A DNA stretch of 64,000 nt, taken from positions 96,259 to 160,258 of IMG/VR virus record IMGVR_UViG_3300028886_001681. One strand, given 5' to 3'. Every line of letters starts with the position of its first letter. The stretch's first letter is position 1. Source of the stretch: a virus (taxonomy: Duplodnaviria > Caudoviricetes). Shown here in pieces: positions 20,278 through 51,708 of this stretch. Position numbers and translations under genes: made by a program. The notes under the pieces are model-generated. The model worked only from the letters and a program-made list of their open reading frames with translations. It ran no database searches and was not told the DNA's origin.

Positions 20278-20357
20278 AACTCGCCTCCTAATAATTTTAG
20301 TTTTTAAGTCATTGCTAGTGACTGTGCATTAAATAGTTAATGCTCACGTAAATAGTT

Positions 20358-20433
20358 AAAAAAAGATTGAGAGGTTAGATAGAACTAGGAATAATTCTAC
20401 CAATAGGCTAGCAACCTACTGTCCCTTTCAATC
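20358..20433 (-). ncRNA. Predicted three-way-junction small RNA, copy A
   Basis: Outer stem GAUUGAAAGG/CCUCUCAAUC plus U-run; hairpin loop UUGCUAG complementary to leader loop CUAGCAA at 20312-20318. Confidence 0.7.
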
Positions 20434-20559
20434 AATGTGATTATACTAAATTTATTTTATTTTATCTAGCGTGGTTTTTGAATTTGGGATTGCAAACATC
20501 GTTGATTACATCCCAAGCACGTTTCATAATTTTCCTCTCTTAAAAATGTATTTATATAC

Positions 20560-21231
20560 TTATTTTTCGTGATTCTTGAACTTCTCGTCGAGCGTGTCGT
20601 ACCAAAAGTTGATTCTGTCCCAAAATTCTTTGTCTTTAGTCTTTACCGAAATGTTGCCGTTCTTGGCGAACGAAACTTCAAGACCCTTCAACTCGTCAAT
20701 CGGCCCACGATAATGGCCTTGTTCTCGCCAAGAATCTTGCACGAGGTACTTCTTTTTCATGTCATTGATGAATTCTGCGTCTTTATGATATTTTTCAAAA
20801 GTTCCGAAATATAAGGCCTCAAAAACTTTCGGTTGCTCAAATTCCGAATACGATTTCCATTTATGTTCGGTTGTCAAGAAGTATGGACTCATACTCGTTT
20901 CAGAGAATGTATAACCCCATTCATTCTTCATCTTGTTGGTGTCCACTCCGTAAGGATTCTCCTTCGATGTTTCGCCCAAGGATTTTTCAATTATTTTTAG
21001 AATGTTGTCGTAAGAAGTGCATTCCGTGGAAGGAATGGAAATGCCCAATTGCTCATTCACAATGTTGTAGTCAACCACTCTAAAATGAAGGTCTGTGTCT
21101 TTCTTTAGTTTTTCAACAATCATATATAGATAATCGCTCACTATATGGAGCGACCAATCGTCCACGATTCCACTATTCGCCAAATCCCAAAACAATTTCT
21201 CATCAATGTCTTTAATTTCAAGCCTTGCCAT
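20560..21231 (-). CDS. Hypothetical protein
   Basis: 223-aa ORF with SD. Confidence 0.6.
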   Translation of the reverse strand: MARLEIKDIDEKLFWDLANSGIVDDWSLHIVSDYLYMIVEKLKKDTDLHFRVVDYNIVNEQLGISIPSTECTSYDNILKIIEKSLGETSKENPYGVDTNKMKNEWGYTFSETSMSPYFLTTEHKWKSYSEFEQPKVFEALYFGTFEKYHKDAEFINDMKKKYLVQDSWREQGHYRGPIDELKGLEVSFAKNGNISVKTKDKEFWDRINFWYDTLDEKFKNHEK

Positions 21232-21243
21232 AATTTATTTCTC

Positions 21244-21654
21244 CTATTCAACAATCATCATCTGTAATCTGTTTTTCAATGTATTTAATTTATTGGTTGA
21301 TTCAGACAACGCCATCAAAATCACATCTTTATTTTCATAATCATATTTTTTTATTTCAATGTAATCTTTCGCAACATCATTTAAACTAGCGTCAATTTCT
21401 TCAAGAAGATTATCTCTGACTGTGGCGTTGAAATTGTAATCTAAATTAAGATTGATTCTATCCCAAGTTTTTTCGATTTTATCGATTCTATGAAGTGTAT
21501 CGGAATTGTCTAAAACTTTTTCCACAACATGTTCTTGCAATTTTATTCCGCTTAAATGCAAACTGAATAAAGTCACTTCTTCGAGAAAAGCCAAAATATT
21601 GTTATAGTTTCGTTTATCCATAATTCCGTTCCTCCTACATATAATATAACACAA
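21244..21654 (-). CDS. Hypothetical protein
   Basis: AGGAGG SD before MDKRN. Confidence 0.55.
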   Translation of the reverse strand: MCYIICRRNGIMDKRNYNNILAFLEEVTLFSLHLSGIKLQEHVVEKVLDNSDTLHRIDKIEKTWDRINLNLDYNFNATVRDNLLEEIDASLNDVAKDYIEIKKYDYENKDVILMALSESTNKLNTLKNRLQMMIVE

Positions 21655-21788
21655 TTATATGCGGATTGTCAAGTAAAATTATTAAAAAATGCGAGCGACA
21701 ACATAAATGATTCTCGCGAGAAATTAACTTGAATTTCAATACAAACAGAGGTTGTCGCCGACAAAAATAGTTATAACTATTTACATTT

Positions 21789-22577
21789 ATGGATATAAAT
21801 ACAACATCTACGACAAATTCAAATCCTCATTTTATGACTAGAAGCCAACCGTTTTACTACGGAGAGCAGATGAAATCTTGGGCGAACACTCCGATGTCCT
21901 ACGCCATAGACATCGCCATAGAAAACCATTTGGGAAAAACCCTTGAATTTCCACTAGATAGAATAATATACGCCTCCAACGAATATTGCTTTAGGGAAAG
22001 GACTAGAAGAAACGAGGGGGAGTTGAACCTTCCTTTCTTGAATTATTACCGAGTGGGATTTGACGATGCGGACAGACCTTGGAAAAACGACTTTTCAAAC
22101 AGATTCGGATTGATAGACCGCGAAAACAAATTCACATCGTTAATGGGCGGAAAGATGAGAATTTATCCCATAACCATAAGTTACGAGGCCACCGCCTTCT
22201 TTGGACAGAACAAGGACTGCGAATACGCCATGAATAAACTTTTATTCGACAGTTCCAACGAAACGATAATCAAGCCCCAAGTGGAAACCAATGACGGAGA
22301 CATTATTGAAAACGCAGGCGTCATGAATTTCGACATAGAGTACAACCCCAACTACCAAGAGAGTGATTGGCTTGAACAGAATAGAATATGGACAATAGGT
22401 TTGGATTTCACTGTGACCACATATATGATTGGCAAGTTCGACCAAAATCCTGACGGACTGCATGTGGCGAAGAAAGTGCTTTTGGAGTTTTTCACGGCCA
22501 AGAAACTCAACTATGAGAACTACAAGGAAAGTGAGAGAATGGAAATTCTTTTGTCCGAGTATTTCGGAACGAACTAG
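21789..22577 (+). CDS. Probable tail/neck structural protein
   Basis: Immediately upstream of tail sheath, TAACTAT 8 nt before ATG; function inferred from position. Confidence 0.5.
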   Translation: MDINTTSTTNSNPHFMTRSQPFYYGEQMKSWANTPMSYAIDIAIENHLGKTLEFPLDRIIYASNEYCFRERTRRNEGELNLPFLNYYRVGFDDADRPWKNDFSNRFGLIDRENKFTSLMGGKMRIYPITISYEATAFFGQNKDCEYAMNKLLFDSSNETIIKPQVETNDGDIIENAGVMNFDIEYNPNYQESDWLEQNRIWTIGLDFTVTTYMIGKFDQNPDGLHVAKKVLLEFFTAKKLNYENYKESERMEILLSEYFGTN

Positions 22578-22648
22578 TCTGAAAATTTTTAACTATTTTA
22601 AGCATTGTGAACGCAAAAAATTTTAATTTTTTATAGGAGAATGAAGAT

Positions 22649-24511
22649 ATGGCTCAATCTTGGAGAATAAAGACTGTCGAAAAAGACAACACGGAAAAGG
22701 CTTTAACTAGCACTGCTACAATGGGCGCGACCGTAATCGTGGCTCCGAAAGGCCCAAAGGATTTTGTTAGGTTCAACAAGGGCGACACCCAAGGAATCTT
22801 GAATACATTCGGATATCCGTCAAAGGATTACCCTACAATCCAAGACGCTTTGGATGTAGTTCAAAAATGCACGATGTATGTGGCGAGTCCATACAAAGGC
22901 GGAACTTATGGAGGAGCGTTCGTGACCAAAGATTTGGGAACGATACCGTTCAACCAAGGAGTGCAGACGAAGGAGATAAGTGATTACGCTTCGGTCGCTT
23001 TCGTGGAGCAAATCGGAATCGGAGACGGAACGACGATTTCTTACGCTTACACAATAAAGAACATCGCCAAATACAACTCGGAAAGTTTGACGCTATCCAT
23101 AGGGGGAGTCGACCATCCAATCACAATCACAAGTTCAGAAGGGATTGAAACCATAACGGACGACCCCACTGAAGGAATTTTGGACTCAGGTTCTTCTCTC
23201 AACACATCGAACGGAGAGTTGACATTGAAATTTAAAACTCCTTTGGTTAGCGGAACAACAATCTCCATCGGATATTCAATGGATTTGTCAGACACATATT
23301 TCGTAATTTTCGACAAGAACATGCAAGAAGACGACCTTCAAGTGAAAGTCGTGGCCTCCGATGATGTGGAAGGCGCGTTCGAAATGACTGTCGAAAGATG
23401 GAATCCTGTTGATTTGGCTTACGAGGGGGTGAACGGAAGCCCATTCTTGTTCGGACTTTCGGAAACATCAAAAGACACCTACGGAGACAACATTTACATC
23501 GAGAATGTGTTCAACGACAAGCAACAGTTGTTCGATGTTCATGTGGTGAATTCAATCGTAAATACATTCGTCGACGACACCAACATGGTGAAATTGAGCG
23601 GAGGGTCGAGAGGCGACGAGCCTAGCGGAGCGGACATAGCGTCAATCTACGACCAACTCCAAGACACGAACAAATATCAATTGAAGTTCTGCTTTGACGG
23701 AACTAACGAGAGCGAGGTAATCGCTAAATATGTGTCGTTGAGGAACAACTATCAAAAAAGATGTCGTTTTGTTTATTGCGCGGCTGATGTGGACGGAGAG
23801 ACGATTGTCAACGACCCCACTACATATAATTTCGGAGTGACCGCCAACAGAGGATTGTACCAATATTGCTTGAATTGGGGAATCCACATCGATATCTACC
23901 AAGGAAACAACTTCAAGTGCTCCAACATGGGTTTGATAGCAGGAAGATTGGTTGACTACTTGGACAACGAGGCCAACACGACTTCCGCTCCCGCTTGGAT
24001 TGATGAAAATGGTGTGGGCGGAATTCTTGGCTCTAGTATCACCAAACTTTCGCAAGAAGGAACCGCCGAGGACATCCTTCATCAGTTGGACGACCTCAAC
24101 TTCAACGCGATTGTGAACGACTTCAACTACGGTCCAATGATTGTAGGTTGGAGAACTCGCCAAGTGAAGAAGAGCGACTTCTCGAACATTCCGATTTCTT
24201 CTCTCGCGGACACAATCATCGAGTTGATTGAGAAGAATGTCTTGCCTAGCAGAATCGGCAAGATGATTGACGAAGCCTCTTACTCCGTGGTGAGAAGCGG
24301 TTGCAACTCAATCTTGGGGACATACTCCAACCGCTTGGAGGACTACTACACTTGGTGCGACTCGGACAACAACACCGCCGAGACAAGAAACCAAGAGGAG
24401 TTGATTGTGGCGGTAGGAATTGTTCCGAAGAAGTTCGCTCGAACGATTTTGTTTGTGTTCAATTTGTTCAAGTCAGGCGATATCTCGGTTGAAGAAATGT
24501 TGAAAAAATAA
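22649..24511 (+). CDS. Contractile tail sheath protein (gp18-like)
   Basis: 620 aa; APKGP, FGYP, LSGG, APAW, LNFNAIV...GWRT, DNNTAE and C-terminal VP..FARTI pattern. Confidence 0.85.
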   Translation: MAQSWRIKTVEKDNTEKALTSTATMGATVIVAPKGPKDFVRFNKGDTQGILNTFGYPSKDYPTIQDALDVVQKCTMYVASPYKGGTYGGAFVTKDLGTIPFNQGVQTKEISDYASVAFVEQIGIGDGTTISYAYTIKNIAKYNSESLTLSIGGVDHPITITSSEGIETITDDPTEGILDSGSSLNTSNGELTLKFKTPLVSGTTISIGYSMDLSDTYFVIFDKNMQEDDLQVKVVASDDVEGAFEMTVERWNPVDLAYEGVNGSPFLFGLSETSKDTYGDNIYIENVFNDKQQLFDVHVVNSIVNTFVDDTNMVKLSGGSRGDEPSGADIASIYDQLQDTNKYQLKFCFDGTNESEVIAKYVSLRNNYQKRCRFVYCAADVDGETIVNDPTTYNFGVTANRGLYQYCLNWGIHIDIYQGNNFKCSNMGLIAGRLVDYLDNEANTTSAPAWIDENGVGGILGSSITKLSQEGTAEDILHQLDDLNFNAIVNDFNYGPMIVGWRTRQVKKSDFSNIPISSLADTIIELIEKNVLPSRIGKMIDEASYSVVRSGCNSILGTYSNRLEDYYTWCDSDNNTAETRNQEELIVAVGIVPKKFARTILFVFNLFKSGDISVEEMLKK

Positions 24512-24530
24512 AAATTAAAAAAAAATAACG

Positions 24531-24563
24531 AAAGCGTCCGACAAAAAATCGGACGCTTTTTTT
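24531..24563 (+). terminator. Rho-independent terminator after sheath gene
   Basis: AAAGCGTCCGA-CAAAAAA-TCGGACGCTTTTTTT. Confidence 0.8.
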
Positions 24564-24694
24564 ATTCATAAACAACCTTGATTGTTCCGCAATTCTATAT
24601 ATTTTGTTCTCTCTCATCATTTCTCGCTCTTGGATGAGTCGTAGAACCTCAATTCCCCTCGTTCGAAAGTTTTTTTAATGGAAATATAATCCAT
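24562..24694 (-). pseudogene. Internally deleted relic of an endonuclease gene
   Basis: AGGAGG-ATG MDYISIKKTFERGELRFYDSSKSEK* then MMRENKIYR and CGTIKVVYE*, matching the C-termini of 24862-26484 and 29210-30769. Confidence 0.7.
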
Positions 24695-24825
24695 TTCCTC
24701 CTACAGTACGCTAAGTTCCGCTAAGAAACGCACCATAGGTTTTAGCGGAACTTACGGATTATTTCTTATATATAATATAGTTGATTTTGATAATTTTGTC
24801 AAGCGAAAATGTTTGGTAATTTTCC

Positions 24826-24854
24826 TTGACATTCCGTTGAAATCATGGCATAAT
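24826..24854 (+). promoter_or_regulatory. Sigma70-type promoter
   Basis: TTGACA-17 nt-CATAAT, 7 nt before ATG at 24862. Confidence 0.7.
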
Positions 24855-24861
24855 CCAAGAC

Positions 24862-26484
24862 ATGAAAGAAACTGAAAGTAAGAAAAAGGAATTGTACTCG
24901 CTCAAGGAACTGCACAAGATGAAAGTGTATCCTACTCTCTTGGAATACCTTGGAATTGAAACTGTGAAGAAAGGCCGAGCGACATATATAACCCAAGAGT
25001 CCTTGGATAAAGCGTTAAAATTCAAGGAGGAGAATCCTAACACGAGAGTTTTGTTGCAAAAATTCGCCTTCATGAAAAAATACGGAGTCGAGAACCCCCA
25101 ACAAGCCAAAGAAATCCGAGAAAAGACGCTCTCCACAGTCAAGGAAAGGTACGGAGTCGAGAACACTTCGCAATCCCAAGAGGTCAAGGACAAGAAGGCT
25201 GACACTCTACGAAAGCGTTACGGAGAAAATGTGTCCAACCCCATGGATTGCGAGGAATTCGTTTTTAAAGTGAAGGAGAATTGGAAAAACAAGAGTCGAG
25301 AGGAGATGAATGCTCTGACCGAAAAGACGAAGAGGACATCGATGCTCAAATACGGTTTCGACAACGCTATGAAAAACAAAAATGTAGCAGACAAGTCGAA
25401 AAACAATAAAAAGGAAAACAAACTCAAGGAACTTGAAAAATACAAAGATTATGTTCCCATAAAAGAAATTTGCATGATTGTCTCAAGGTGTTATGACAGA
25501 GTCTTGGATGTAATCAAACTTTTGGGATTGGAGATTATAGAAGTCAAGGATTCCCACTTAGTGAAAAAATCCGATTTAGATAAAATCAAAAAATATTTTG
25601 AAGTTGCGTCGGATTACGCTACTTCAAACGAAGAAAAAGAGTTGTTGGAATTCATCGAAACATTAACCGACGAAAAAATTATCTCCAACGATAAATTGAC
25701 GATAAATCCATACGAATTAGACATTTTCATTCCTTCAAAAAATTTGGCGTTCGAATTTGACGGAATTTACTACCACTCCAACCAATTCAAAGACAAATTT
25801 TACCATTACGACAAAACCAAGTTGTGCGAGAAAAAAGGAATTAGATTAATTCATGTCTTTGAGGACGACTGGCGATTCAAGCGGAACATAGTGAAATCGA
25901 TGATAAATGCTTCGTTGGGAATTTACGAACGGAAAATATTCGCTCGCGAATGTGAAGTCAAAAACATTTTCAATTTTGAATACCGAGATTTTATGAACGA
26001 AAACCATCTGCAAGGATACGCTTCCGCTAGTCGTTATTTAGGATTGTATTATCGCGGAGAATTGGTTCAGTGCGTGGGAATAAAATATAACGGAATCAAC
26101 AAGACTTGGGAATTGAACCGCATGGCCACTAAACTCAACAATCAAGTCGTGGGAGGCTTTAGCAAACTATTGAAACACGCGATAGAGCGATTCAACATCA
26201 AGGAAATGACTTCCTATGTCTTCAAGTCTTGGTTCGACGGAAAATCTTACGAGGCTTGCGGATTCAAATTCGACAAGGAATGCCCTCCGACTTATTGGTA
26301 TGTCGTGAATGGAATGAAAACAAACCGAATGAATTGGCAAAAGAAATTCATCAAGGAGAAATTCAACAAGGGTGAATTGAGGCATTACGACGAATTAGAA
26401 AGCGAGTTTGACAACATGGCGAAAAACGGATTCAATTGGATTTGGGATAGCGGTAAAATAAGATTAAGGTATAAATCGGAATGA
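24862..26484 (+). CDS. Homing-endonuclease-like protein (KYGVEN repeats, PD-(D/E)XK-like domain, C-terminal domain)
   Basis: KYGVENP repeats, ELDIFIP...AFEFDGIYYHS, LIHVFEDDW, QVVGGFSKL, WDSG. Confidence 0.7.
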   Translation: MKETESKKKELYSLKELHKMKVYPTLLEYLGIETVKKGRATYITQESLDKALKFKEENPNTRVLLQKFAFMKKYGVENPQQAKEIREKTLSTVKERYGVENTSQSQEVKDKKADTLRKRYGENVSNPMDCEEFVFKVKENWKNKSREEMNALTEKTKRTSMLKYGFDNAMKNKNVADKSKNNKKENKLKELEKYKDYVPIKEICMIVSRCYDRVLDVIKLLGLEIIEVKDSHLVKKSDLDKIKKYFEVASDYATSNEEKELLEFIETLTDEKIISNDKLTINPYELDIFIPSKNLAFEFDGIYYHSNQFKDKFYHYDKTKLCEKKGIRLIHVFEDDWRFKRNIVKSMINASLGIYERKIFARECEVKNIFNFEYRDFMNENHLQGYASASRYLGLYYRGELVQCVGIKYNGINKTWELNRMATKLNNQVVGGFSKLLKHAIERFNIKEMTSYVFKSWFDGKSYEACGFKFDKECPPTYWYVVNGMKTNRMNWQKKFIKEKFNKGELRHYDELESEFDNMAKNGFNWIWDSGKIRLRYKSE

Positions 26485-26513
26485 TGTAATTTTTCAAGAA
26501 ATTGATTTCATAG

Positions 26514-26544
26514 AAAAAGACCCTAGATTTCTCTAGGGTCTTTT
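26514..26544. terminator. Bidirectional terminator between endonuclease and capsid genes
   Basis: AAAAAGACCCTAGA-TTTC-TCTAGGGTCTTTT. Confidence 0.8.
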
Positions 26545-26580
26545 CATCTATTTATGTCTTGTTAGATTTCAAGTCGCCGA

Positions 26581-31317: not shown

Positions 31318-31357
31318 GTTTCACCTCAATGACAATCGATATATAATAGTTAAAAAT

Positions 31358-37356: not shown

Positions 37357-37602
37357 TTATTCCTCCTTTTCTTCTTTTACCGAACGGTAATAATTTGTAC
37401 AATTTGAGTTAATTTCGTACTCAATTTTACCGATAGGTAAAACATGAGTTATATGACAAGCATAGTTTTCTTCATAATAATTTAATTTTTTCAAAAGTTC
37501 TTGAATTACATTCCAATAAATATCCGTCATACTGTTCATGTTACACCTCAAAATTGTATTATCATTATAATTTAATATTTATTGAAAAAAATCAATAGAA
37601 TT

Positions 37603-38748
37603 CTATAAAATTCCGTATTCTTGAAAGTATTTTGTTAATTCTTTTTCGACCGTTTTAAGATTATTAAGTCTTATTAGGATAATTCCATTATTTTTACAAT
37701 AATCATTTTTAATTTGGTCTCGAAATTGAATTTGCTTAAAATTTTCCATCAATTGTTCTTCTGTCAAATTAGCACCAAAACTGCAAGGAGAAAAATGTTG
37801 TCCACCATCAAATTCAATACAAATATTAAATTTTGGAAGATAAAAATCAAATGGAAGTGAATGTATATTTACACAATCTTTAAATTTCTTTTCTCTTTCA
37901 AAATTTATATGATTGTTCATTAAAAAGTTATATACTTCTATTTCACCTTTTGATTCATCACAAATAGGACATCCTTGACCATTTGAATGATTATTTGGTG
38001 TTTGTTGGAATCCGCCGTGTTTTGGACAAATAATAATCACTTTCGTATGTGCATTAATATAATTAACTTTAGAATAATCATATTTTCCAAGACCTTGGAC
38101 TTTGTTTGCTTTTTCTATAAATTCTGCTAATGTCATCCTGCGTTTATTTGCTCGTTTTTCAATTCCACATAAACGACATCCTTTACCTCTTAAATGATGA
38201 TTTGGAGTTTGTTCAAATTCATAAGGTCTATTTTTATTTTTACAAGTTTTACAAATAATAAGAATTTTAGTTGCATCATTCACATAAACAACTTTAGAAT
38301 AATCATATAAATCTCCATAAATCAATTTCGCATTTTCTATAAATTCTTCTAAAGTTGATTTTTGTTTTTCATGACCTTGTATATTCCCACAAACTTTACA
38401 ACCTTGTCCTCGTAAATGATTGTTAGGTGTTTGTGGAAAAGGTTTATGTCCTTTAATTCTGCAAATAATTTCAACTTTTACATCATTTTTCACATAAACT
38501 ACATTTGAATAATCATATCTATCTCCATGTCTTCTTAAAGCCTTTCTGATAAAAGTTTTAGTTTTCTCGTCTTTATTAAAATATCTTTCGTTAATAATCC
38601 GTTCAATTTCTTCTTCAGATAATTTTGGATATTCAACCGTTTGATTTTCCGATTTTGGAGTGTCAACGGAAACACATTCTTTACAGTTACAATTTTCTTG
38701 ATTAATTTTTGTCTTATCATAAGACATCATTCGATTTAATACATTCAT
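37603..38748 (-). CDS. Zn-ribbon-repeat endonuclease, copy B (3 repeats)
   Basis: Same N-terminus and repeats as copy A; FDFY...CIEFDGGQH. Confidence 0.8.
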   Translation of the reverse strand: MNVLNRMMSYDKTKINQENCNCKECVSVDTPKSENQTVEYPKLSEEEIERIINERYFNKDEKTKTFIRKALRRHGDRYDYSNVVYVKNDVKVEIICRIKGHKPFPQTPNNHLRGQGCKVCGNIQGHEKQKSTLEEFIENAKLIYGDLYDYSKVVYVNDATKILIICKTCKNKNRPYEFEQTPNHHLRGKGCRLCGIEKRANKRRMTLAEFIEKANKVQGLGKYDYSKVNYINAHTKVIIICPKHGGFQQTPNNHSNGQGCPICDESKGEIEVYNFLMNNHINFEREKKFKDCVNIHSLPFDFYLPKFNICIEFDGGQHFSPCSFGANLTEEQLMENFKQIQFRDQIKNDYCKNNGIILIRLNNLKTVEKELTKYFQEYGIL

Positions 38749-38830
38749 AAATCTAATCTCCTATAAAAATTATTTTTACGTTGTTAGTACCAACATCACA
38801 TTAAATAGTTAATGCTAAAAATAGATTGTT

Positions 38831-38910
38831 AAAAAAATTAAAGAGGTGTGGTTGAACGAGATTAGGAATTCAACCAATGTATAAGGTACTAACTTACACT
38901 CACCTCTTTA
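38831..38910 (-). ncRNA. Predicted three-way-junction small RNA, copy B
   Basis: Perfect 10-bp outer stem UAAAGAGGUG/CACCUCUUUA; loops UUAGUAC and UUCCUAAUCUCG. Confidence 0.72.
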
Positions 38911-38950
38911 TAAATAATAAATAGTTAATAATTAATTTTCAATCCTAATT

Positions 38951-44239: not shown

Positions 44240-44303
44240 CTCGTCTCCTTAAAAGAAAAATCGCCCACATAGTAGGCGATTTCTCAGATAAATTCAATAA
44301 GAA

Positions 44304-44693
44304 TTAATCAGATTCCGCGTTTTTATTTCTCCAATCATAATCAAAATTTATGATTGGAAAACCTTTTCGTCTGCTGAAACACCAATTGAAAACTCTATCA
44401 AGCAATAAGCCGTCTTCGTAATCTCCGTAAATCGTGTCAAATCTAAAGCCGTCAAAATATGCTTGCACTTCATCCCAATATTTTTCATTGGATTTGTCAA
44501 AAAATTCAGACACTTCCATATCATATGTATCTTGGGTGAAATTGTTCGCGGTGAAATAAACAAATGACACGCTTAAATAATTGAAACCGTTATTAAAATG
44601 AATGCATAATCCATTCAATCCACCGTACTGTTTCCAATGAGCATTTGTCTTTTCCGCAATTTTAACAATATCTTTAACTTTAATATCCGCCAT
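44304..44693 (-). CDS. Hypothetical protein
   Basis: GAGGTG SD. Confidence 0.55.
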   Translation of the reverse strand: MADIKVKDIVKIAEKTNAHWKQYGGLNGLCIHFNNGFNYLSVSFVYFTANNFTQDTYDMEVSEFFDKSNEKYWDEVQAYFDGFRFDTIYGDYEDGLLLDRVFNWCFSRRKGFPIINFDYDWRNKNAESD

Positions 44694-44835
44694 ATCTCAA
44701 TCACCTCTCTATTGAATCATTCCGTAAATGATGTTTATTACCCATTGGTACTCACATGTCAATCCATTGGGACAACTCCGCCTCACCCTCGTCAACGAAA
44801 AATCGCTCTCTCTCCCATTCTTCGTCTGTGCACAA

Positions 44836-45819
44836 TCAAAGTTCTCCAAAAACAAAATCGCAACTGCCATACATAGGCTCGGCATACCAACCATTCTTTT
44901 TGGCCAACTTGTCAATCGCTTGTTTGCCCAACGAATAATCGTCGAACATGTCGAGAACACCTTGATTGTCATAAACCACGATTGTTCCGTCATCCTCAAC
45001 CCTATATTTGAATGAGAACAAAGGACCATACTTTTTATAAAAAGAATAATCGTTCATGTCGATGTTCTCATGGCAATAGTCGTTCAACTCATTCACAAAC
45101 TTGGCCACATTCTTTTCGTTGATTGGTTTCACGGATTCTTTCAGACTTTTTCTTGATGGTTTTCTTTTAGATTCCGCCAAATAAATTGTTTTCTTCTTGC
45201 CGTTAGTTACATCGATGATTTTATAAACATTTGCGTCATTTTCCAAATCAACAATATCATTTCTTGTAACATCATCAAGATAATCCGTAGGAGTGTCGTC
45301 CCAATATACAATTTTTACATCAATGCCTTCTTTCAGACTTTTTCTAGTAGATTTCTTTTTAGATTCCGCCAATGAAAAATCCATAGGATGAGTATCGCAA
45401 GTCAAATAAATGGCGAATCCAAAATTCCACATTTCATCTTGTTCATAAACATCGCCGTTAATTCTAATCACACACTCATTGTTAGACAAACTTTCAACAT
45501 CGCCCATTAATCCGCCAATATTAAAAACAAGGTCGATTCTATTTCCTACAGAATTGTGAGCGATATGAATGGCGTTGCCGTCGAGAACTCCCAACTTTGA
45601 CAAGCGAACCGCTTTTTTAATCTCATCTTCAACTGTATCAACATCGGTGTCGTATCCTTCGGATTCAAACAAAGAATTGAGCGTTTTCTCGTCCACAATC
45701 TTTCCATTGAAAAAATATTCAATGTGATGCACATTTTTCACCACCCATTTACCCCAAGTAGTCCTATCAATTTCTTCTTTAATTGCGTCATTAAAATTAC
45801 TATTAACATATTTTGCCAT
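44836..45819 (-). CDS. Multi-domain protein with duplicated LAESK..RKSLKE linker
   Basis: LAESKKKSTRKSLKE and LAESKRKPSRKSLKE. Confidence 0.6.
   Translation of the reverse strand: MAKYVNSNFNDAIKEEIDRTTWGKWVVKNVHHIEYFFNGKIVDEKTLNSLFESEGYDTDVDTVEDEIKKAVRLSKLGVLDGNAIHIAHNSVGNRIDLVFNIGGLMGDVESLSNNECVIRINGDVYEQDEMWNFGFAIYLTCDTHPMDFSLAESKKKSTRKSLKEGIDVKIVYWDDTPTDYLDDVTRNDIVDLENDANVYKIIDVTNGKKKTIYLAESKRKPSRKSLKESVKPINEKNVAKFVNELNDYCHENIDMNDYSFYKKYGPLFSFKYRVEDDGTIVVYDNQGVLDMFDDYSLGKQAIDKLAKKNGWYAEPMYGSCDFVFGEL
45136..45372. repeat. 45-bp imperfect direct repeat (45136-45180, 45328-45372)
   Basis: TTCTTTCAGACTTTTTCT...TTTAGATTCCGCCAA in both copies. Confidence 0.8.
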
Positions 45820-45851
45820 AATTTTATTCTCCTCTTATAGGTTTTCTTCAA

Positions 45852-46184
45852 TTACGAAATGTTGGCGTAAACTATATCAAATCCGAAAGTATATTCTCCG
45901 TTTAATCTATTTGGACAACTCCAAGCAAATATAATTTCATTATCCTTTAATTCCAAAGAATAAGGAACATAAGGAGGGATTCCTTTTACAAATTCAGCAA
46001 GAGTATCTGATTTATAAATCTTGTCCAACCAAGACTTAGTCCATTCATTTGCTTTTTTCCAAGTTTCGTCTGTAATTTTCTTTGATTTCCATGATTCAAC
46101 TCCATCTTCATCATAAAAACCTCTAAACCCATGTGAAGCACCAGCATAAATTTGAACATCTCTGAAATCCACATTAAATGTCAT
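45852..46184 (-). CDS. Hypothetical protein with own TAACTAT
   Basis: AGGAGG SD, TAACTAT near 46230-46236. Confidence 0.6.
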   Translation of the reverse strand: MTFNVDFRDVQIYAGASHGFRGFYDEDGVESWKSKKITDETWKKANEWTKSWLDKIYKSDTLAEFVKGIPPYVPYSLELKDNEIIFAWSCPNRLNGEYTFGFDIVYANIS

Positions 46185-46233
46185 AATTTTATTTCCTCCT
46201 ACTGTTAAACCGTTTCCTTGATGAATAAAATAG

Positions 46234-46503
46234 TTAAATCAACTTATCGCTCCAATCGTTCCGTCGTTCGTAACTATCAAGTCCTTTGTCGAAAATTTCC
46301 TTAATCATTCCAACCCATTCGTCCACGGAATAATCGGAGAATTTTCTAGTTTCAATCGAATTGTCCGTGTAATGAAGAATGGTGTCCGTCAAGTCGTCCT
46401 CCGACCACACCTCGACAAACCCTTGGTCAAAGTTGAGCACCACATCCTTAATTCCAAGTTTATCTAATTTATTTCGCAACTGCTTGTTTCTAATATCTTT
46501 CAT
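46234..46503 (-). CDS. Hypothetical protein with own TAACTAT
   Basis: AGGAG SD before MKDIR, TAACTAT near 46526-46532. Confidence 0.55.
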   Translation of the reverse strand: MKDIRNKQLRNKLDKLGIKDVVLNFDQGFVEVWSEDDLTDTILHYTDNSIETRKFSDYSVDEWVGMIKEIFDKGLDSYERRNDWSDKLI

Positions 46504-46599
46504 AAAATTATCTCCTATAATCAAGATAGTTATATGATACAATAAATTAATTTATTTGTCAAGGAAAATTATCAACAATTTTTTATAACTATTTGTCTT

Positions 46600-46788
46600 A
46601 TGAAGAGATTAAAAGAAAAAGCGCAGTTGGAATTCAATTGCAAAACAATAAACCAACTCATTGATGTTCTTGAAGATATTAGAACCGTCATGGGCGGAAA
46701 CACGAAGGTTGGGAGAACCAACAATTTGAAACCCAACATAGATGTTCAATTGTTCAACTATGGCGACGGAATAGTGATTTTGAATTAG
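46600..46788 (+). CDS. Small protein, leaderless after TAACTAT
   Basis: TAACTAT 46586-46592, ATG 7 nt later; starts MKRLKE. Confidence 0.55.
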   Translation: MKRLKEKAQLEFNCKTINQLIDVLEDIRTVMGGNTKVGRTNNLKPNIDVQLFNYGDGIVILN

Positions 46789-46790
46789 AT

Positions 46791-47477
46791 ATGATTTGCT
46801 TTGATGATAAAGAATTGCAAGATTTTACCCTTTCTCTTTATAATAAATATTTTTATGATTTACCTTTTAATCTTAAAAATATAAAATTCGCTCATATGAA
46901 AGAAGATTCTGTATTGGGATACACTCATTCTGAATCAAAGAAAGGAAAACAACTTATTAATGATATTGATAATGAAATTACAAGCAATATATTTATTTCA
47001 AAAGGATACATTGGAATAGATTGTACTTCTACGGTATTACATGAGATGTGCCATGCTTATGTCGATACTAATTTTTTTGATATTGAATGGGAAAATAATG
47101 CAAATCATAAAGGCTTATGGGTTGAAATAACAGAACTAATTTCTAAAAGAAGTGGAATTAATTGTTTTTGGTCTGCGGATATTGATACAAGAAAAGTAAC
47201 TGCAAAAGATGTCGTTGAAAAAACTATGGAAAAATCAAAACAACTGTATAATTTTTTCAACAAAATAGACGATATTCATTGTCAACATGATATAAAAACA
47301 ATGATGAAATATGAAGATACGAAAGAATTCCTCCAACTTTTAATGGAAGAAAAAGATTCTGATTGGAAAAAATATTGGAACAGATTAAAAGAATGGGAGA
47401 ACGCTGATTTTGAATATTGGAAGAATAGCAAAGAAGGCGTTTCTTGGCTATTCTATATTGCTTTTGGCGATTTATAA
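46791..47477 (+). CDS. SprT-like zinc metalloprotease
   Basis: LYNKYF, TVLHEMCH (HExxH), downstream HKGLW. Confidence 0.75.
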   Translation: MICFDDKELQDFTLSLYNKYFYDLPFNLKNIKFAHMKEDSVLGYTHSESKKGKQLINDIDNEITSNIFISKGYIGIDCTSTVLHEMCHAYVDTNFFDIEWENNANHKGLWVEITELISKRSGINCFWSADIDTRKVTAKDVVEKTMEKSKQLYNFFNKIDDIHCQHDIKTMMKYEDTKEFLQLLMEEKDSDWKKYWNRLKEWENADFEYWKNSKEGVSWLFYIAFGDL

Positions 47478-48230
47478 TCCAAAAATATCTTCTTTAAAAT
47501 TATCTACATAATTTCCATTATGTTCTATTCTGTTCTTCGCTATCTCAAAATACTTTGGGTCTATCTCGCAACCTATAAAATTTCTATTCAACATCTTGCT
47601 TGCTATTCCGCAACTTCCAATTCCCATAAATGGGTCGATTACGGTGTCGCCTTCATTCGTTGAATTTTCCACAAGAATCTTCATCAATTCAATCGGCTTT
47701 TCGGTGTCGTGCAAATTGTGACCGTCCTTGTCCTTCAATTTCTTGATTGGAATCGAAAGGATGTCGGAAGTTCCGCAATTGTTTATGGGTCGGTCGCCTC
47801 CCTTGCGGAACAAACAGATGTACTCGAATTGGTTCATATAATAGCGACCGCAAATCTTGGATTGCTTATCCCAAATCAAGCACTTCACGAAATGGAAACC
47901 GACCTTTTCCGCCTCGTTCAACATCTCTCGAAGATTGATGTTGTTTATCATTATGTAGCAATGGGTTCTTTCCTTCAAAATGCGATAAAAATGCGGAAGG
48001 TAGTCGCTAGGCTTGAGTGAATTGTTTTCGAATATTTTTCCTTTCCTAGCGATATCGGATTTCCAATATCCGCTCATCGTGCCACATCCTCCGCGAGAAG
48101 TAACGGGATAAGCGACATCGGAGCAAACTAAGTCTACCGAATTATCGGCCACCTCCCCCATCACCTTCAAACAATCTTCGTTGAACAATTTTATTTCAGA
48201 CATTTCCTTCCTCTCTGTACCCAATTTCAT
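47472..48230 (-). CDS. DNA methyltransferase (beta-class) with atypical DVAY motif IV
   Basis: SDVAY, HDTEKP, DPFMGIGSC. Confidence 0.85.
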   Translation of the reverse strand: MKLGTERKEMSEIKLFNEDCLKVMGEVADNSVDLVCSDVAYPVTSRGGCGTMSGYWKSDIARKGKIFENNSLKPSDYLPHFYRILKERTHCYIMINNINLREMLNEAEKVGFHFVKCLIWDKQSKICGRYYMNQFEYICLFRKGGDRPINNCGTSDILSIPIKKLKDKDGHNLHDTEKPIELMKILVENSTNEGDTVIDPFMGIGSCGIASKMLNRNFIGCEIDPKYFEIAKNRIEHNGNYVDNFKEDIFGL

Positions 48231-49212
48231 AAATCCTCTTCGACTTCAACCCTTCCGCGTAATCCTTCATGCTCTCCACCTCATCTGCGTTTATTCCGCA
48301 AGCGTTGGAGTGTCCACTCGCGTGGTTTAAATTCAACAAGTCGAACTCTCTGCTACGAAGGCTTATCTTCGGCTCGTCTTGGTCGTAGTCGTTCACAATC
48401 ACGCAGTAGTCGAGTTTCTTGTATTTCTCCAAAATCCTAGACGCTATCGCGCTCACCTTGCTCTTGCAAGAGAAGACGCAAAAGTACCTTCCTTGTGAGT
48501 CTTTTCTCGTGCTAATTTCCTTGGACGCGTTTCTTATCAAGTTCTCGAATATCTCGTTCTCTTTGTTGATGTCGCCTTGTATCTTCTCCGTCTCCCAAGC
48601 CACGAACTTGAAGTCGTTCATGTTCTGCGTTTTCCAAACCATCGAGTTTATGAATGTCTCGTAGGCGGATATTCTGTCGGTAGGATTGGACTTCAAAATG
48701 TACCACTTTGCGGACGAGTAGAGCAACCGATTAAGTTTATCGGCTTCGGAAAACAAAGGCGACCCTTTCTTGTATAAGTCGTATGTATCGGTCAACTCGA
48801 CGATATAATCCGACACCTTGTTTCCTTCATAGCCTTGCGACTTTAGCCACTCATAGTACAACTTCGTTCCGCACTTCTCGTTGTCAAATATGTACTCCGC
48901 GTTGGGATAGGACTTCGTGAATTCCTCCATCGGCTCCTTGACGCTTTCGTGGTGGTCTATGACAAGGCACTTGATTCCTTTTTCCTTGATGATTTCCTTC
49001 GCCCTATCGTTGGGGCTAAAGTCCGTGTACACCACAGTTTCGTACAGTCCGCTAGACAAGTCGGAATTCTCTAATTCCTCTCCATAGTTGGTCATGATTT
49101 CCTTGGAATAGTTTATCTGAAAAAATCTGTTGAGGGCGATGGGGATGCTGCCGTCGCAATCTATGTGGCTTATGAATAACGCTTTGTCTAAATTAATTTC
49201 ATTCAACTTCAT
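48196..49212 (-). CDS. DHH-family phosphoesterase
   Basis: SHIDCDG, TDF, IDHH, SLRS and GHSNACG. Confidence 0.85.
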   Translation of the reverse strand: MKLNEINLDKALFISHIDCDGSIPIALNRFFQINYSKEIMTNYGEELENSDLSSGLYETVVYTDFSPNDRAKEIIKEKGIKCLVIDHHESVKEPMEEFTKSYPNAEYIFDNEKCGTKLYYEWLKSQGYEGNKVSDYIVELTDTYDLYKKGSPLFSEADKLNRLLYSSAKWYILKSNPTDRISAYETFINSMVWKTQNMNDFKFVAWETEKIQGDINKENEIFENLIRNASKEISTRKDSQGRYFCVFSCKSKVSAIASRILEKYKKLDYCVIVNDYDQDEPKISLRSREFDLLNLNHASGHSNACGINADEVESMKDYAEGLKSKRIYEIGYREEGNV

Positions 49213-49283
49213 ATAAAAATATCCTTGCAGTTTGTTTCAAGGCAAGGATAGCACAATGAAAATTATTTTTCAAGCGTTTTGGA

Positions 49284-49757
49284 TTATTTTTCTTCCAATT
49301 CTTTTATTCTCTTGTCGCAAATTTCAATAATTTGTTCATAATCAGAAACACGGTCTTTTACATTCGGATAAAGAATTCTTGTCAGAATAACAACATCATC
49401 GGAAGTCAAATCATAATCTTCAAGCATTTCGCCCAAAGTAACGTCTTTTGGTTCAAGATTTTCAATAGGAAAAACATTCTCGTTATTCTGAAATTGTCTA
49501 ATACGCTCAAGAGCAATATGCTTCATTTTTTTATAATCTAGAATTCTTGGGTCAGTTTGTTTAGTTCTTAAAGTTCTTTTTACCAAATCACAATCAAATC
49601 CATTGTTAATTCTAAACTTTATCCATATATCCCATATTTGATAACGATGTTTATTGTAGTCACTACTTCCTTCGACAATATTTCTAACTTCATTTACATC
49701 AATCATATTTATATCTCCATTAAAATTTAATATAAAAATTTTATAAATTAAAGTCAA
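49284..49757 (-). CDS. Hypothetical protein
   Basis: Co-oriented ORF; likely start MIDVNE. Confidence 0.5.
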   Translation of the reverse strand: MTLIYKIFILNFNGDINMIDVNEVRNIVEGSSDYNKHRYQIWDIWIKFRINNGFDCDLVKRTLRTKQTDPRILDYKKMKHIALERIRQFQNNENVFPIENLEPKDVTLGEMLEDYDLTSDDVVILTRILYPNVKDRVSDYEQIIEICDKRIKELEEK

Positions 49758-51304
49758 TACAAATTTTCAAAATAATTCATAAGTTTTTCTTCTACATTTT
49801 CATCATAACGAATTCGTAAAAGATTCATTCCTTTATCTTTACAATAATTATTTTTAATTTGGTCATGTTTTTGAATATATTCAAAACTTTTTAATGTTTC
49901 CTCTTTTGTTGATTTTTTAAAACTAGTAGGAATAAAATGTTGTATTCCATCATATTCAATACATAAATTATACATTGGTACATAAAAATCAAACGGAAGA
50001 GAGTTTGAATCTTTACAATCTTTAAATTTCATCTGTTCTTCAAATTTAATACCATGTTCCGTTAAGAAATTTCTAACTTTAATTTCACCAATATAATTTC
50101 TACATTTAGGACATCCACAATCTAATAAGTGGTCGTTTGGTCTTTGTGGAAAAGGTCCGTGTTTCGGACAAATTATAATAACTTCAGTTTGATAATTCAC
50201 ATATTTCACTTGAGAATAATCATAAGTTCCAACTCCATGAAGTTTATTTGCTCTTTCTATAAATTCTTCCAAAGTCAATTTTCTATCATTTGCTAATTTT
50301 TCATATGCACAGTCTAAACAACCTTTACCACTTAAATGATTAGATGGTGCTTGTGGAAAATCACCATGAATTGGGCAAGTTATAATTACATCTGTACTAT
50401 TATTTATATAATTTACTTTAGAATAATCATATTTATTTCCGTGAATTTTTCTTGAGCGTTCTATAAATTCTTCCAATGTTAATCTTCGTTTATCTGCTCG
50501 ATTTTTAATTCCACAAAGTTTACAACCGTTACCTGATAAATGATGAGATGGAGTCTGTGGAAATTCATAAGGTGTTTCGTGATTATGACAAATTATAATT
50601 ACTTCAGTTTGATTATTTACATAATTGACTTTTGAGTAATCATATCTTCCGATTCCATGCACTTCATTCGCTTCTTCTATAAATTCTTCTACTGTCTTTC
50701 TTCTTTTATCCGCCCTTGTTTTCATTGCACACAAATCACACCCATGTCCTTGTAAATGAAGAAATGGTGCTTGAGGAAATTCATAAGGAACATCATGGTT
50801 ATGACAAATTATATTCACATCAGTATAACAATCAACATATTTAACTTTAGAATAATCATATTTTCCCACTCCATGTTTTTTATTCGCTTTTTCTATAAAT
50901 TTTTCAGTTGTTAATTTTCGTTTATTGCTTCGTCTTTCAATGGCACAAATTTTACAACCTTTACCTTGTAAGTGATTTGAGGGTGTTTGTGGAAATGGTT
51001 TATGACCTTCAACTCGACAAATAATTTCTATATTTACGCTATCCTTTATATAAATCACATTAGAATAATCATATCTATCACCATGTTTTCTCAACGCTTT
51101 CCGAATAAAAGTTTTTGTCTTTTCATCTTTATTAAAATATCTTTCGTTAATAATCCGTTCAATTTCTTCTTCAGATAATTTTGGATATTCAATAATTTGA
51201 TTATCTGATTTTACATTTTCGGCAGAAACGCATTCTTCACAATTACAATTTTCTTGATTAATTTTTGTCTTATCATAAGACAAAATACGAGTTAATGAAT
51301 TCAT
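49754..51304 (-). CDS. Zn-ribbon-repeat endonuclease, copy C (5 repeats)
   Basis: Same N-terminus and repeats as copies A and B; FDFY...CIEYDGIQH. Confidence 0.8.
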   Translation of the reverse strand: MNSLTRILSYDKTKINQENCNCEECVSAENVKSDNQIIEYPKLSEEEIERIINERYFNKDEKTKTFIRKALRKHGDRYDYSNVIYIKDSVNIEIICRVEGHKPFPQTPSNHLQGKGCKICAIERRSNKRKLTTEKFIEKANKKHGVGKYDYSKVKYVDCYTDVNIICHNHDVPYEFPQAPFLHLQGHGCDLCAMKTRADKRRKTVEEFIEEANEVHGIGRYDYSKVNYVNNQTEVIIICHNHETPYEFPQTPSHHLSGNGCKLCGIKNRADKRRLTLEEFIERSRKIHGNKYDYSKVNYINNSTDVIITCPIHGDFPQAPSNHLSGKGCLDCAYEKLANDRKLTLEEFIERANKLHGVGTYDYSQVKYVNYQTEVIIICPKHGPFPQRPNDHLLDCGCPKCRNYIGEIKVRNFLTEHGIKFEEQMKFKDCKDSNSLPFDFYVPMYNLCIEYDGIQHFIPTSFKKSTKEETLKSFEYIQKHDQIKNNYCKDKGMNLLRIRYDENVEEKLMNYFENLY

Positions 51305-51376
51305 AATAATTCTCCTATAATTTTAATTTTTTAGTCCATGCCAAGACTTTTACATAATAAATAGTTAAATTATTTT

Positions 51377-51440
51377 AAAAGAGTTAGAGGTTCAACGGAG
51401 AAGTTGAACCTCAATAGGTGGCATCCTACTGTCCTCTTAA
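51377..51440 (-). ncRNA. Predicted three-way-junction small RNA, copy C
   Basis: CAGUAGG-AUGCCA-CCUAUUG and GAGGUUCAAC-UUCUCC-GUUGAACCUC hairpins inside an AAGAG/CUCUU stem. Confidence 0.72.
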
Positions 51441-51708
51441 TATAATAGTTTAATATTATATTTAATTTTTCAAATCAATTGTACATTCTATATAATTAGG
51501 TTCATCTATTTCAATTCCCATTCCCTTAGCAAGCATTTTATTTTCTTCCCAATTTTCAGCGGTTACATCAATTCTGATGATTCTATTTTCTTTATCTTCT
51601 TTTGTTGTCACATCCTCATATTTCATATTCTTTTTTTTTCCTTCTCAATCTCATTTTAGTCCATAATTCATTTCAACTCAAGCGTTTTCAACAAATCGCA
51701 GAAAAATT

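What the first reader, a model, noticed from the sequence alone, without database searches (positions are those of the whole stretch)
20281..51451. Three nuclease genes each paired with a cognate small RNA whose two loops match its own mRNA leader (covarying, orthogonal codes)
Seen: upstream of each Zn-ribbon-repeat endonuclease (A 18973-20277, B 37603-38748, C 49754-51304; minus strand) lies a 65-80 nt three-way junction (outer stem enclosing two hairpins, then a U-run). It is followed by a TAACTAT motif, a small leader hairpin, then the SD and ATG. Loop 1 is the exact reverse complement of that copy's leader-hairpin loop, and the sequence differs per copy: A UUGCUAG (20408-14) vs CUAGCAA (20312-18); B UUAGUAC (38886-92) vs GUACUAA (38784-90); C AUGCCA (51419-24) vs UGGCAU (51338-43). 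Loop 2 is complementary to that copy's ribosome-binding region: C UUCUCC vs GGAGAA; B CUAAUCUC vs GAGAUUAG; A UUCCUAG vs UUAGGAG (two G-U). Stems also covary. Inference: a separately transcribed antisense RNA silences its own nuclease by kissing-loop plus SD occlusion, with a different code per paralog so copies do not cross-talk. This would be an RNA-antitoxin or immunity module of a selfish nuclease cassette. It resembles in concept the P1 C4 and P4 CI antisense RNAs, but I do not recognise it as described for this nuclease family.
Basis: partly seen in the sequence, partly recalled or inferred. Interest (0 to 1): 0.92.

Follow-up and report, generated by a model that had tools for sequence, protein, structure and literature searches.

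The report
Coded RNA repressor guarding phage homing nucleases
Each of three mobile nuclease genes in this uncultured phage carries a small folded RNA just upstream whose two loops base-pair with that gene's own mRNA leader and ribosome-binding site; the pairing sequence differs from copy to copy (22 versions found in relatives), which makes it a natural set of sequence-coded translation switches not yet described for homing endonucleases.

Summary
It holds in 27 further-sampled cassettes from related metagenomic phages.

- **Layout.** Upstream of each Zn-ribbon/Vsr-like homing endonuclease gene the order is: promoter-like motif, 65-80 nt three-way junction (3WJ), U-run, TAACTAT promoter motif, leader hairpin, SD, ATG.
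- **Loop 1.** It is the exact reverse complement of the leader-hairpin loop in every cassette, with 22 different sequences. All 7 kissing pairs show double-sided changes (94.7% paired, against 17-46% in slid controls).
- **Loop 2.** It covaries with the SD and the SD-ATG spacer.
- **3WJ stems.** They covary too (17 of 24 pairs).
- **Mobility.** An empty allele shows that the RNA module moves with the nuclease gene as one 1.5-kb cassette.
- **Known families.** There is no Rfam match and no match in GenBank phages.

Best reading (about 0.55): the 3WJ is a discrete small RNA that blocks translation of its own nuclease. A kissing loop supplies specificity and SD occlusion supplies the effect. It would act in trans on promoter-2 transcripts and in cis on read-through.

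Main rival (about 0.3): cis-only silencing of read-through transcripts, as in T4 I-TevI and mobE.

Separate transcription, termination and repression are inferred, not shown. Orthogonality is not strict: one related contig carries two cassettes with the same loop-1 code. The antitoxin/immunity idea is untested.

The parts
20440..20468 (-). Cassette A, promoter 1 (sigma-70-like, TAGATA-17-TATAAT), ending about 5 nt before the 3WJ
   Evidence: 10 of 12 matches; similar TATAAT-type elements occupy the same place in relatives L032, L036, L040, L043 and L044
20358..20435 (-). Cassette A, three-way-junction RNA plus U-run; loop 1 at 20408-20414, loop 2 at 20385-20394
   Evidence: MFE -24.5 kcal/mol, z -3.8
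20330..20359 (-). Cassette A, two TTAACTATTTA promoter motifs (20349-20359 and 20330-20340)
   Evidence: genome-wide, 46 of 65 TAACTAT sites lie within 100 nt upstream of SD+start+ORF, against 12.7 for random positions
20278..20323 (-). Cassette A, mRNA leader: hairpin 20307-20323 (loop 20312-20318), A-rich spacer, SD 20285-20291
18973..20277 (-). Nuclease A (434 aa): Zn-ribbon (DUF4379) repeats plus a C-terminal Vsr/I-Bth0305I-like nuclease domain
38914..38942 (-). Cassette B, promoter 1: exact TTAACTATTTA at 38918-38928, overlapping a sigma-70-like TTGAAA-17-TATTAT
38831..38911 (-). Cassette B, three-way-junction RNA plus U-run; loop 1 at 38886-38892, anti-SD part of loop 2 at 38858-38865
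   Evidence: CM score 86.2 bits
38802..38812 (-). Cassette B, promoter 2 (TTAACTATTTA)
38749..38794 (-). Cassette B, mRNA leader: hairpin 38780-38794 (loop 38784-38790), SD plus spacer target 38753-38760
37603..38748 (-). Nuclease B (381 aa)
37443..38936 (-). Whole mobile cassette B (1,494 bp), delimited against the empty allele in L013: promoter 1, 3WJ, promoter 2, leader, nuclease and about 160 bp of 3' sequence
   Evidence: the flanking primase is 76% identical; L013:13817-13900 joins the two flanks directly and holds no 3WJ
51445..51460 (-). Cassette C, promoter 1 region (TATAAT 51455-51460; AAACTAT 51445-51451)
51377..51440 (-). Cassette C, three-way-junction RNA plus U-run; loop 1 at 51419-51424, loop 2 at 51397-51402
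51358..51368 (-). Cassette C, promoter 2 (TTAACTATTTA)
51305..51348 (-). Cassette C, mRNA leader: hairpin 51333-51348 (loop 51338-51343), SD 51310-51315
49754..51304 (-). Nuclease C (516 aa)

Best explanation
Each cassette encodes, on the same strand and just upstream of its homing-endonuclease gene, a small RNA of about 65-80 nt. It starts at promoter 1, folds into a three-way junction and ends at the U-run after the outer stem. The nuclease mRNA starts at promoter 2 (TAACTAT type), so its 5' end is the leader hairpin. Loop 1 of the small RNA forms a 6-7 bp kissing complex with the leader-hairpin loop; this is the specificity step and differs per cassette. Loop 2 then pairs with the Shine-Dalgarno sequence and the SD-ATG spacer; this is the effector step and blocks 30S binding. 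The result is repressed translation of the nuclease. Any transcript that reads through the U-run carries both partners and is silenced in cis by the same contacts. Shown here: the pairing potential, its covariation, the 3WJ fold, the co-mobility of the RNA module and the nuclease gene, and the positions of the promoter-like and terminator-like motifs. Inferred: that both promoters fire, that the U-run terminates, that pairing occurs in trans, and that the outcome is repression.
For: There are 22 distinct loop-1/leader-loop codes, all exact reverse complements. The kissing helix has 7 of 7 pairs with double-sided changes and 94.7% of cells paired, with 0 of 500 shuffles reaching the observed score. 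Cognate apex complementarity is 6-9 nt, against at most 6 and mostly 2-4 for non-cognate pairs. Within this genome, cognate loop-1 duplexes are -8.8 to -11.4 kcal/mol and non-cognate ones -1.9 to -6.5. Loop 2 covaries with the SD and spacer in at least 10 versions, with cognate mean 7.2 nt against 5.4 non-cognate. The 3WJ stems covary in 17 of 24 pairs and include G-U pairs, which fit this strand only. In 25 of 27 cassettes a -10-like element lies 5-10 nt before the outer stem, and two different promoter types occupy that same position; promoter 2 sits a constant 14 nt before the leader loop. TAACTAT is associated with gene starts: 46 of 65 sites against 12.7 for random positions. Promoter 1 lies inside the inserted cassette and not in the flank. 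In closely related cassettes the loop positions differ about 2.8 times more often than the rest of the module, and always in compensated pairs. That pattern is expected if specificity itself is under selection. Displaying both partners as loops on stable stems is the hallmark of bimolecular antisense recognition (established knowledge: ColE1 RNAI/RNAII, R1 CopA/CopT).
Against: The simple terminator scan does not call the 3WJ a terminator in A or B, and T-runs also precede many TAACTAT promoters elsewhere in the genome, so the U-run may belong partly to promoter 2. Two cassettes (L011b, L038) have no recognisable promoter 1. When promoters 1 and 2 are of the same class, the benefit of making repressor and target together is unclear. 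Two cassettes on one related contig share a loop-1 code. Loop 2 discriminates poorly between copies. The cassettes sampled are related to one another, so the counts are not independent events.
Confidence: 0.55

Rival explanations
1. Cis-only insulator. The 3WJ with its U-run stops or weakens transcription coming from upstream genes. In transcripts that still read through, the same two loops fold back onto the leader and the SD, so the nuclease is translated only from promoter-2 (late-type) transcripts that lack the 3WJ. This is the logic known for T4 I-TevI, I-TevII, I-TevIII, segB and Aeh1 mobE.
For: The anti-SD element lies upstream of promoter 2, and promoter-2 transcripts would lack it. 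That is exactly the arrangement reviewed for T4 homing endonucleases (PMC2988022). L011b and L038 have the 3WJ directly after the upstream stop codon, with no promoter 1. Cassettes A, L028, L036, L040 and L043 have a host-type promoter 1 and a phage-type promoter 2, which would give early-silent and late-active transcripts. Shared codes within one contig are harmless in cis.
Against: A dedicated promoter-like element directly before the 3WJ in 25 of 27 cassettes has no role in a cis-only scheme. T4-type control uses a simple local hairpin, not two loops displayed on stable stems about 90 nt away. Paired loop positions evolve faster than the rest of the module, which is the opposite of what purifying selection on a cis structure usually gives.
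Confidence: 0.3
2. RNA-antitoxin or immunity module. The nuclease is harmful to its own carrier or to a co-infecting genome, and the small RNA is kept as its antidote. Private codes would make each cassette, or an orphan RNA, an immunity determinant.
For: This reading needs the trans mechanism above. The loops diverge fast and in a compensated way. An orphan 3WJ with a unique loop 1 and no target in its own genome sits after the recA-like gene. A relative has an ordinary terminator at that site.
Against: There is no evidence of toxicity, of differential RNA stability or of addiction. Homing endonucleases normally do not cut their own occupied site. No cognate leader for the orphan was found. 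The orphan is explained equally well as a remnant of recombination.
Confidence: 0.1
3. The complementarity is a DNA-level or chance feature, for example short inverted repeats used by a protein, and not an RNA interaction.
For: The two partners form a 6-7 bp inverted repeat about 95 bp apart.
Against: Both partners always sit in the loops of hairpins whose stems covary and contain G-U pairs. There are 22 compensated versions. Loop 2 independently tracks the SD region.
Confidence: 0.02

Closest known systems
c4 antisense RNA of phages P1 and P7 (immI operon; Citron and Schuster 1990, as cited in PMC8198154)
   Same: A small structured RNA encoded on the same strand just upstream of its target. 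Two separate loop segments pair with two sites in the downstream mRNA, one covering a ribosome-binding site. From my own knowledge, specificity differs between related phages through compensated base changes (P1/P7 heteroimmunity).
   Different: There is no sequence or structure homology and no Rfam hit. c4 is cut out of the same transcript as its target, whereas here there is a separate promoter motif and a U-run. The target here is a homing endonuclease in a mobile cassette, not an antirepressor. There are 22 specificities instead of two. The target site is itself displayed in a hairpin loop (kissing).
RBS-sequestering hairpins of T4-type homing endonuclease genes (I-TevI, I-TevII, I-TevIII, segB, Aeh1 mobE; PMC2988022)
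   Same: Translational control of a phage homing endonuclease by pairing of the SD. The inhibitory segment lies upstream of a late-type promoter, so late transcripts escape it. Terminators are associated with the cassette.
   Different: The T4 elements are single local hairpins acting only in cis. Here there is a separate 3WJ about 90 nt upstream with its own promoter-like motif, a kissing-loop specificity element and hypervariable codes.
Kissing-loop antisense control of plasmid replication (ColE1 RNAI/RNAII, R1 CopA/CopT; my own knowledge)
   Same: Fully complementary loops of 6-7 nt on stable stems start the recognition. Loop changes create new specificities (incompatibility groups).
   Different: Those RNAs are transcribed from the opposite strand and are fully complementary to the target. 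Here the RNA is on the same strand and only the two loops are complementary.
I-Bth0305I / EDxHD (Vsr-like) homing endonucleases (PMC3239194)
   Same: The model of the nuclease's C-terminal domain (pLDDT 91) best matches Vsr (1cw0, 1vsr) and the I-Bth0305I catalytic domain (3r3p). The gene is phage-borne and mobile.
   Different: These genes are free-standing rather than intron-encoded. They have an N-terminal array of 3-5 treble-clef Zn-ribbon repeats. There is no detectable sequence match to any PDB chain.

Membership tests
Rfam C4 antisense RNA (P1/P7 c4) and any other Rfam family | Match to the family covariance model | tested here: not met
   0 matches at gathering score over the whole window. 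Over cassette B at E up to 10 there were only two chance-level hits, to unrelated families.
c4-like mechanism (works like, not membership) | Two loop segments complementary to two sites of the downstream mRNA, one of them at the RBS | tested here: met
c4-like mechanism | RNA matured from the same transcript as its target (RNase P processing) | not testable with these tools
   No transcript data. A separate promoter motif and a U-run suggest otherwise.
T4-type homing endonuclease translational control | The anti-SD segment lies upstream of a late promoter, so late transcripts lack it | tested here: met
   The TAACTAT motif lies between the 3WJ and the leader in all 27 cassettes as read by eye. 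The motif scan located it for 25 of the 27; in L011b and L038 it directly abuts the U-run and fell outside the scanned stretch. The motif is associated with gene starts.
T4-type homing endonuclease translational control | A single local hairpin that encloses the RBS | tested here: not met
   The SD partner is loop 2 of a separate 3WJ about 90 nt upstream. The leader hairpin does not contain the SD.
Intrinsic (rho-independent) terminator | G+C-rich stem directly followed by a U-run | tested here: inconclusive
   An outer stem of 6-10 bp is followed by at least 4 U within 0-6 nt in the cassettes. The consensus scan handles only simple hairpins: it calls nothing in A or B, and in C it calls only hairpin 2.
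Cis-encoded kissing-loop antisense RNAs (RNAI, CopA) | Transcribed from the strand opposite to the target, with full complementarity | tested here: not met
   The RNA is on the same strand as the target, and complementarity is confined to the two loops.
Type I toxin-antitoxin | Small membrane-active toxin peptide whose mRNA is held by an unstable antisense RNA | tested here: not met
   The regulated product is a 381-516 aa DNA endonuclease. RNA stabilities are not testable.
EDxHD / Vsr-like homing endonuclease (the nuclease gene) | Vsr-like PD-(D/E)xK catalytic fold with conserved acidic and His residues | tested here: met
   Foldseek probability 1.00 to 1cw0, 1vsr and 3r3p, TM 0.49-0.65, E 2.5e-3 to 2e-2. 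E, D, G and H are nearly invariant in the ..CIE.DG..H.. block.
Homing endonuclease gene (mobile cassette) | Occupied and empty alleles of the same site in related genomes | tested here: met
   Window 37443-38936 against L013:13817-13900. The same regulatory module is also found at different sites (L001 and L016).
Homing endonuclease gene | Site-specific cleavage of the empty allele | not testable with these tools
   Needs an enzyme assay.

The most novel reading that the evidence does not exclude
The loop codes are specificity determinants under diversifying selection. The small RNAs would act in trans between cassettes and between co-infecting phages, so that a resident or orphan RNA silences an incoming nuclease with the same code (anti-homing immunity or incompatibility), and cassettes escape by compensated loop changes. 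This would be an arms race fought with a natural library of orthogonal riboregulators.
Probability: 0.15. Interest if true: 0.92.

Novelty: new variant of a known kind. Interest (0 to 1): 0.8.

Why it matters
Homing endonuclease genes are the commonest selfish genes of large phages. Their known control is by simple cis hairpins, autorepression and terminators. Here a whole cassette family carries a dedicated, structurally conserved RNA. Its contacts with its own mRNA are rewritten again and again (22 versions) while the scaffold stays fixed.

If it acts in trans, it is a new class of phage small RNA and the first RNA repressor tied to homing endonucleases. It would also make a long-standing question directly testable: how do many paralogous selfish nucleases coexist and compete in one genome or in one co-infected cell?

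In either case the set is a ready-made natural panel of orthogonal kissing-loop/anti-SD switches, of practical interest for synthetic riboregulators. The covariation is strong enough to define a new RNA family for Rfam.

Tried and rejected
2. Known phages. Searches of GenBank phages found no relative of the phage and nothing resembling the RNA module (megablast; blastn of the module). The nuclease gene gave only 60-80% partial matches.
3. Region-wide complementarity. A search for the longest reverse-complement match over whole regions was swamped by AT-rich chance matches. It was replaced by apex-window and column-based tests.
4. First sliding-fold script.
5. MAFFT alignment of all 13 first 3WJs. 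It was too ragged for a model. The model was built from the 9 'type II' sequences, so 'type I' 3WJs (A, C, L011b, L027 and others) score only 19-27 bits.
6. Target for the orphan 3WJ. None was found in the own genome. 60 matches of a 15-mer in IMG/VR all lacked the leader context and are chance.
7. Is the orphan 3WJ the ancestral recA terminator? Rejected: a relative with an 88% identical RecA has an ordinary hairpin terminator there and no 3WJ.
8. Sequence search of the PDB with nuclease A: no hit. Fold search was needed instead.
9. Group I intron, tRNA-like element and guide RNA for the nuclease were considered. They were dropped because there is no Rfam hit, the cassette is intergenic with an empty allele, and the complementarity is only 6-11 nt and directed at its own mRNA leader.
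10. More distant homologues (L029:1210, 42% identity; L018:16106; L002, L005) have no 3WJ upstream. The module is therefore confined to one subfamily.


Full report
**Setting.** The window is the last 64 kb of a 160,258-bp, 38.5% G+C phage-like contig. It has no close relative among GenBank phages. Its terminase is only about 25% identical to known ones. Relatives come from ENA, Logan and JGI metagenomes. Their sample labels (TONG22, XIEF21, SHIW14) look like ruminant gut studies; that is my inference from the labels only.

**The nucleases.** The three minus-strand ORFs A, B and C are paralogues (58-61% identity).
- Each has an N-terminal array of treble-clef Zn-ribbon repeats (DUF4379/DUF723; phrog_559, 681 and 9084).
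- Each has a C-terminal domain of about 120 aa. Its AlphaFold model (pLDDT 91) best matches Vsr and the catalytic domain of the homing endonuclease I-Bth0305I.
- They are free-standing homing-endonuclease-like genes.

- Each upstream element folds by MFE into an outer stem enclosing two hairpins. Energies lie 3.8-5.9 sd below shuffles. A U-run follows.
- Next come one or two TTAACTATTTA motifs, a small hairpin, an A-rich spacer, the SD and the ATG.
- Loop 1 is the exact reverse complement of the leader-hairpin loop: 7, 7 and 6 nt in A, B and C.
- Loop 2 is complementary to the SD region.

**Relatives.**

*Sampling.* I fetched homologous nuclease loci in three ways: by protein pattern, by exact-protein look-up of database homologues, and by a degenerate DNA pattern on the conserved N-terminal codons. 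With two further cassettes found by the covariance model, this gives 27 aligned cassettes plus these two.

*Loop 1.* Every cassette of this subfamily has the same architecture. In every one, loop 1 is the exact reverse complement of the leader loop. The sequence takes 22 different forms. Some close relatives differ by a single compensated pair: L001 vs L033, and L041 vs L048.

*Tests.*
- In 9-nt windows at the two hairpin apices, cognate pairs share 6-9 complementary bases. Non-cognate pairs mostly share 2-4 and never more than 6.
- On alignment A7 the seven kissing pairs all show changes on both sides. 94.7% of cells pair, against 17-46% when the partner is slid. 0 of 500 shuffles reach the observed covariation.

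*Loop 2.* It tracks not only the SD but also the SD-ATG spacer, in at least ten versions of 6-11 nt.

*3WJ stems.* The 3WJ itself is supported by 17 of 24 pairs with double-sided changes. It includes G-U pairs that would be A-C on the other strand, so the structure belongs to RNA of the nuclease-sense strand.

*Known families.* Rfam has nothing like it.

**A mobile unit.** The primase gene upstream of B is 76% identical to that of L013. In L013 the two flanks are joined directly, with no 3WJ, leader or nuclease.
- The insertion in the window is 37443-38936 (1,494 bp). It includes promoter 1, the 3WJ, promoter 2, the leader and the nuclease.
- Nearly the same regulatory module occurs at different genomic sites and in front of diverged nuclease bodies (L001 vs L016).

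**Promoter and terminator motifs.**
- TAACTAT occurs 65 times in the genome. 46 of these sites lie within 100 nt upstream of a co-oriented SD+start+ORF, against 12.7 +/- 3.2 for random positions. The median distance to the start codon is 41 nt. This agrees with an earlier first-reader note of this scan that calls it a late-type promoter.
- In the cassettes the motif sits a constant 14 nt before the leader loop. Transcripts from it would begin at the leader hairpin and would lack the 3WJ.
- A second -10-like element lies 5-10 nt before the outer stem of the 3WJ in 25 of 27 cassettes. In about 16 it is the phage ACTAT type. In about 10 it is a TATAAT type, including TAGATA-17-TATAAT in A and TTGACA-17-TATGTT in L028.
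- Two different promoter types at the same position and spacing argue that initiation just before the 3WJ is selected.
- The outer stem is followed by a U-run in all cassettes. However, T-runs also precede many TAACTAT promoters, and the simple terminator scan cannot judge a branched structure. Termination is therefore inferred, not shown.

**Mechanism.** The pairing is certain to be selected; its sign and topology are inferred.
- Loop 2 covers the SD itself, so repression of translation is the natural outcome.
- Loop 1 supplies specificity. Within this genome, cognate loop-1 duplexes are -8.8 to -11.4 kcal/mol and non-cognate ones -1.9 to -6.5. Loop 2 hardly discriminates.
- I favour a discrete small RNA acting in trans on promoter-2 transcripts, and in cis on read-through, for four reasons. 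It has its own promoter-like element inside the cassette. It has a terminator-like end. Both partners are displayed as loops on stable stems, as in known bimolecular antisense systems. And in close cassette pairs the loop positions differ about 2.8 times more often than the rest of the module, always in compensated pairs. That last point is the opposite of what purifying selection on a cis structure gives.
- The main rival is the cis-only logic established for T4 I-TevI, segB and Aeh1 mobE, where early read-through transcripts are silent and late-promoter transcripts are active (PMC2988022). It fits the position of promoter 2 and the two cassettes without promoter 1. It leaves promoter 1 and the hypervariable loops unexplained.

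Orthogonality is not strict. The four codes of this genome differ, but two distinct cassettes on one 214-kb contig share a loop-1 code while having different loop-2/SD pairs. Nothing here tests toxicity or addiction.

**An orphan copy.** The covariance model found a fourth 3WJ in this genome, outside the window (L023:12447-12515, minus strand; genome 51447-51515; 81 bits).
- It lies after a RecA-like gene and before an unknown 198-aa ORF. It has promoter motifs and the A-rich leader, but no leader hairpin.
- Its loop 1 has no leader-like target in the genome.
- A relative has an ordinary terminator at that site.
- It may be a recombination remnant. More speculatively, it may be a retained repressor aimed at a nuclease carried by other phages.

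**Comparison with known systems.**
- In working principle the closest is the c4 RNA of P1/P7, but it is not homologous.
- The closest in biological context is T4-type RBS sequestration.
- The closest in recognition chemistry are the kissing-loop antisense RNAs of plasmids.
- I therefore rate this a new variant of a known kind of control. It defines a new RNA family, and it is new for homing endonucleases.

Noticed in passing
L023:12447-12515 (minus strand) = own genome 51447-51515, outside the window: Orphan 3WJ (81 bits) after a RecA-like gene and before an unknown 198-aa ORF. It has promoter motifs and the A-rich leader, but no leader hairpin and no loop-1 target in the genome. A relative (L112) has a plain terminator there.
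   Followed up: partly
whole genome; window sites listed: TAACTAT(T/A)T motif: 65 copies, 46 of them within 100 nt upstream of co-oriented gene starts (12.7 expected at random). It is probably a phage-specific promoter. Many cassettes carry two copies 20 nt apart, the first abutting the U-run.
   Followed up: partly
window 37357-37602 (minus strand): The 3' 160 bp of cassette B supply the start codon and N-terminal part of the downstream 64-aa ORF. The C-terminal part of that ORF is flank sequence, which is non-coding or differently used in the empty allele L013. The insertion has therefore remodelled the neighbouring gene.
   Followed up: partly
window 20462-20527 (minus strand): A 21-codon mini-ORF with an SD lies just upstream of promoter 1 of cassette A. 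Its last codons and stop are conserved upstream of the related cassette in L032, so A-type cassettes may start further upstream than the 3WJ.
   Followed up: no
leaders of all cassettes, e.g. window 38761-38779, 51316-51332, 20292-20306: A conserved A/U-rich spacer (consensus about CUUAAAAAUUAAAAUUAU) lies between the leader hairpin and the SD. At 72-81% identity it is better conserved than the stems. It may be a translational enhancer, an RNase site or a chaperone site.
   Followed up: no
L039, L040, L046 (contig JAEEGH010000384.1, 214 kb): One related contig carries four cassettes of this family, two of them with the same loop-1 code but different loop-2/SD pairs.
   Followed up: partly
L019:6870-8677: In one relative an IS200/IS605-type pair (Y1 transposase plus a TnpB-like OrfB) sits next to the primase gene, just upstream of the nuclease cassette.
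   Followed up: no
L011:19775-21329 and L017:9996-11936: In relatives the anaerobic ribonucleotide reductase gene nrdD carries GIY-YIG hits, and one 3WJ cassette (L011b) starts directly after its stop codon. An earlier first-reader note of this scan describes a multiply interrupted nrdD in this genome too.
   Followed up: no
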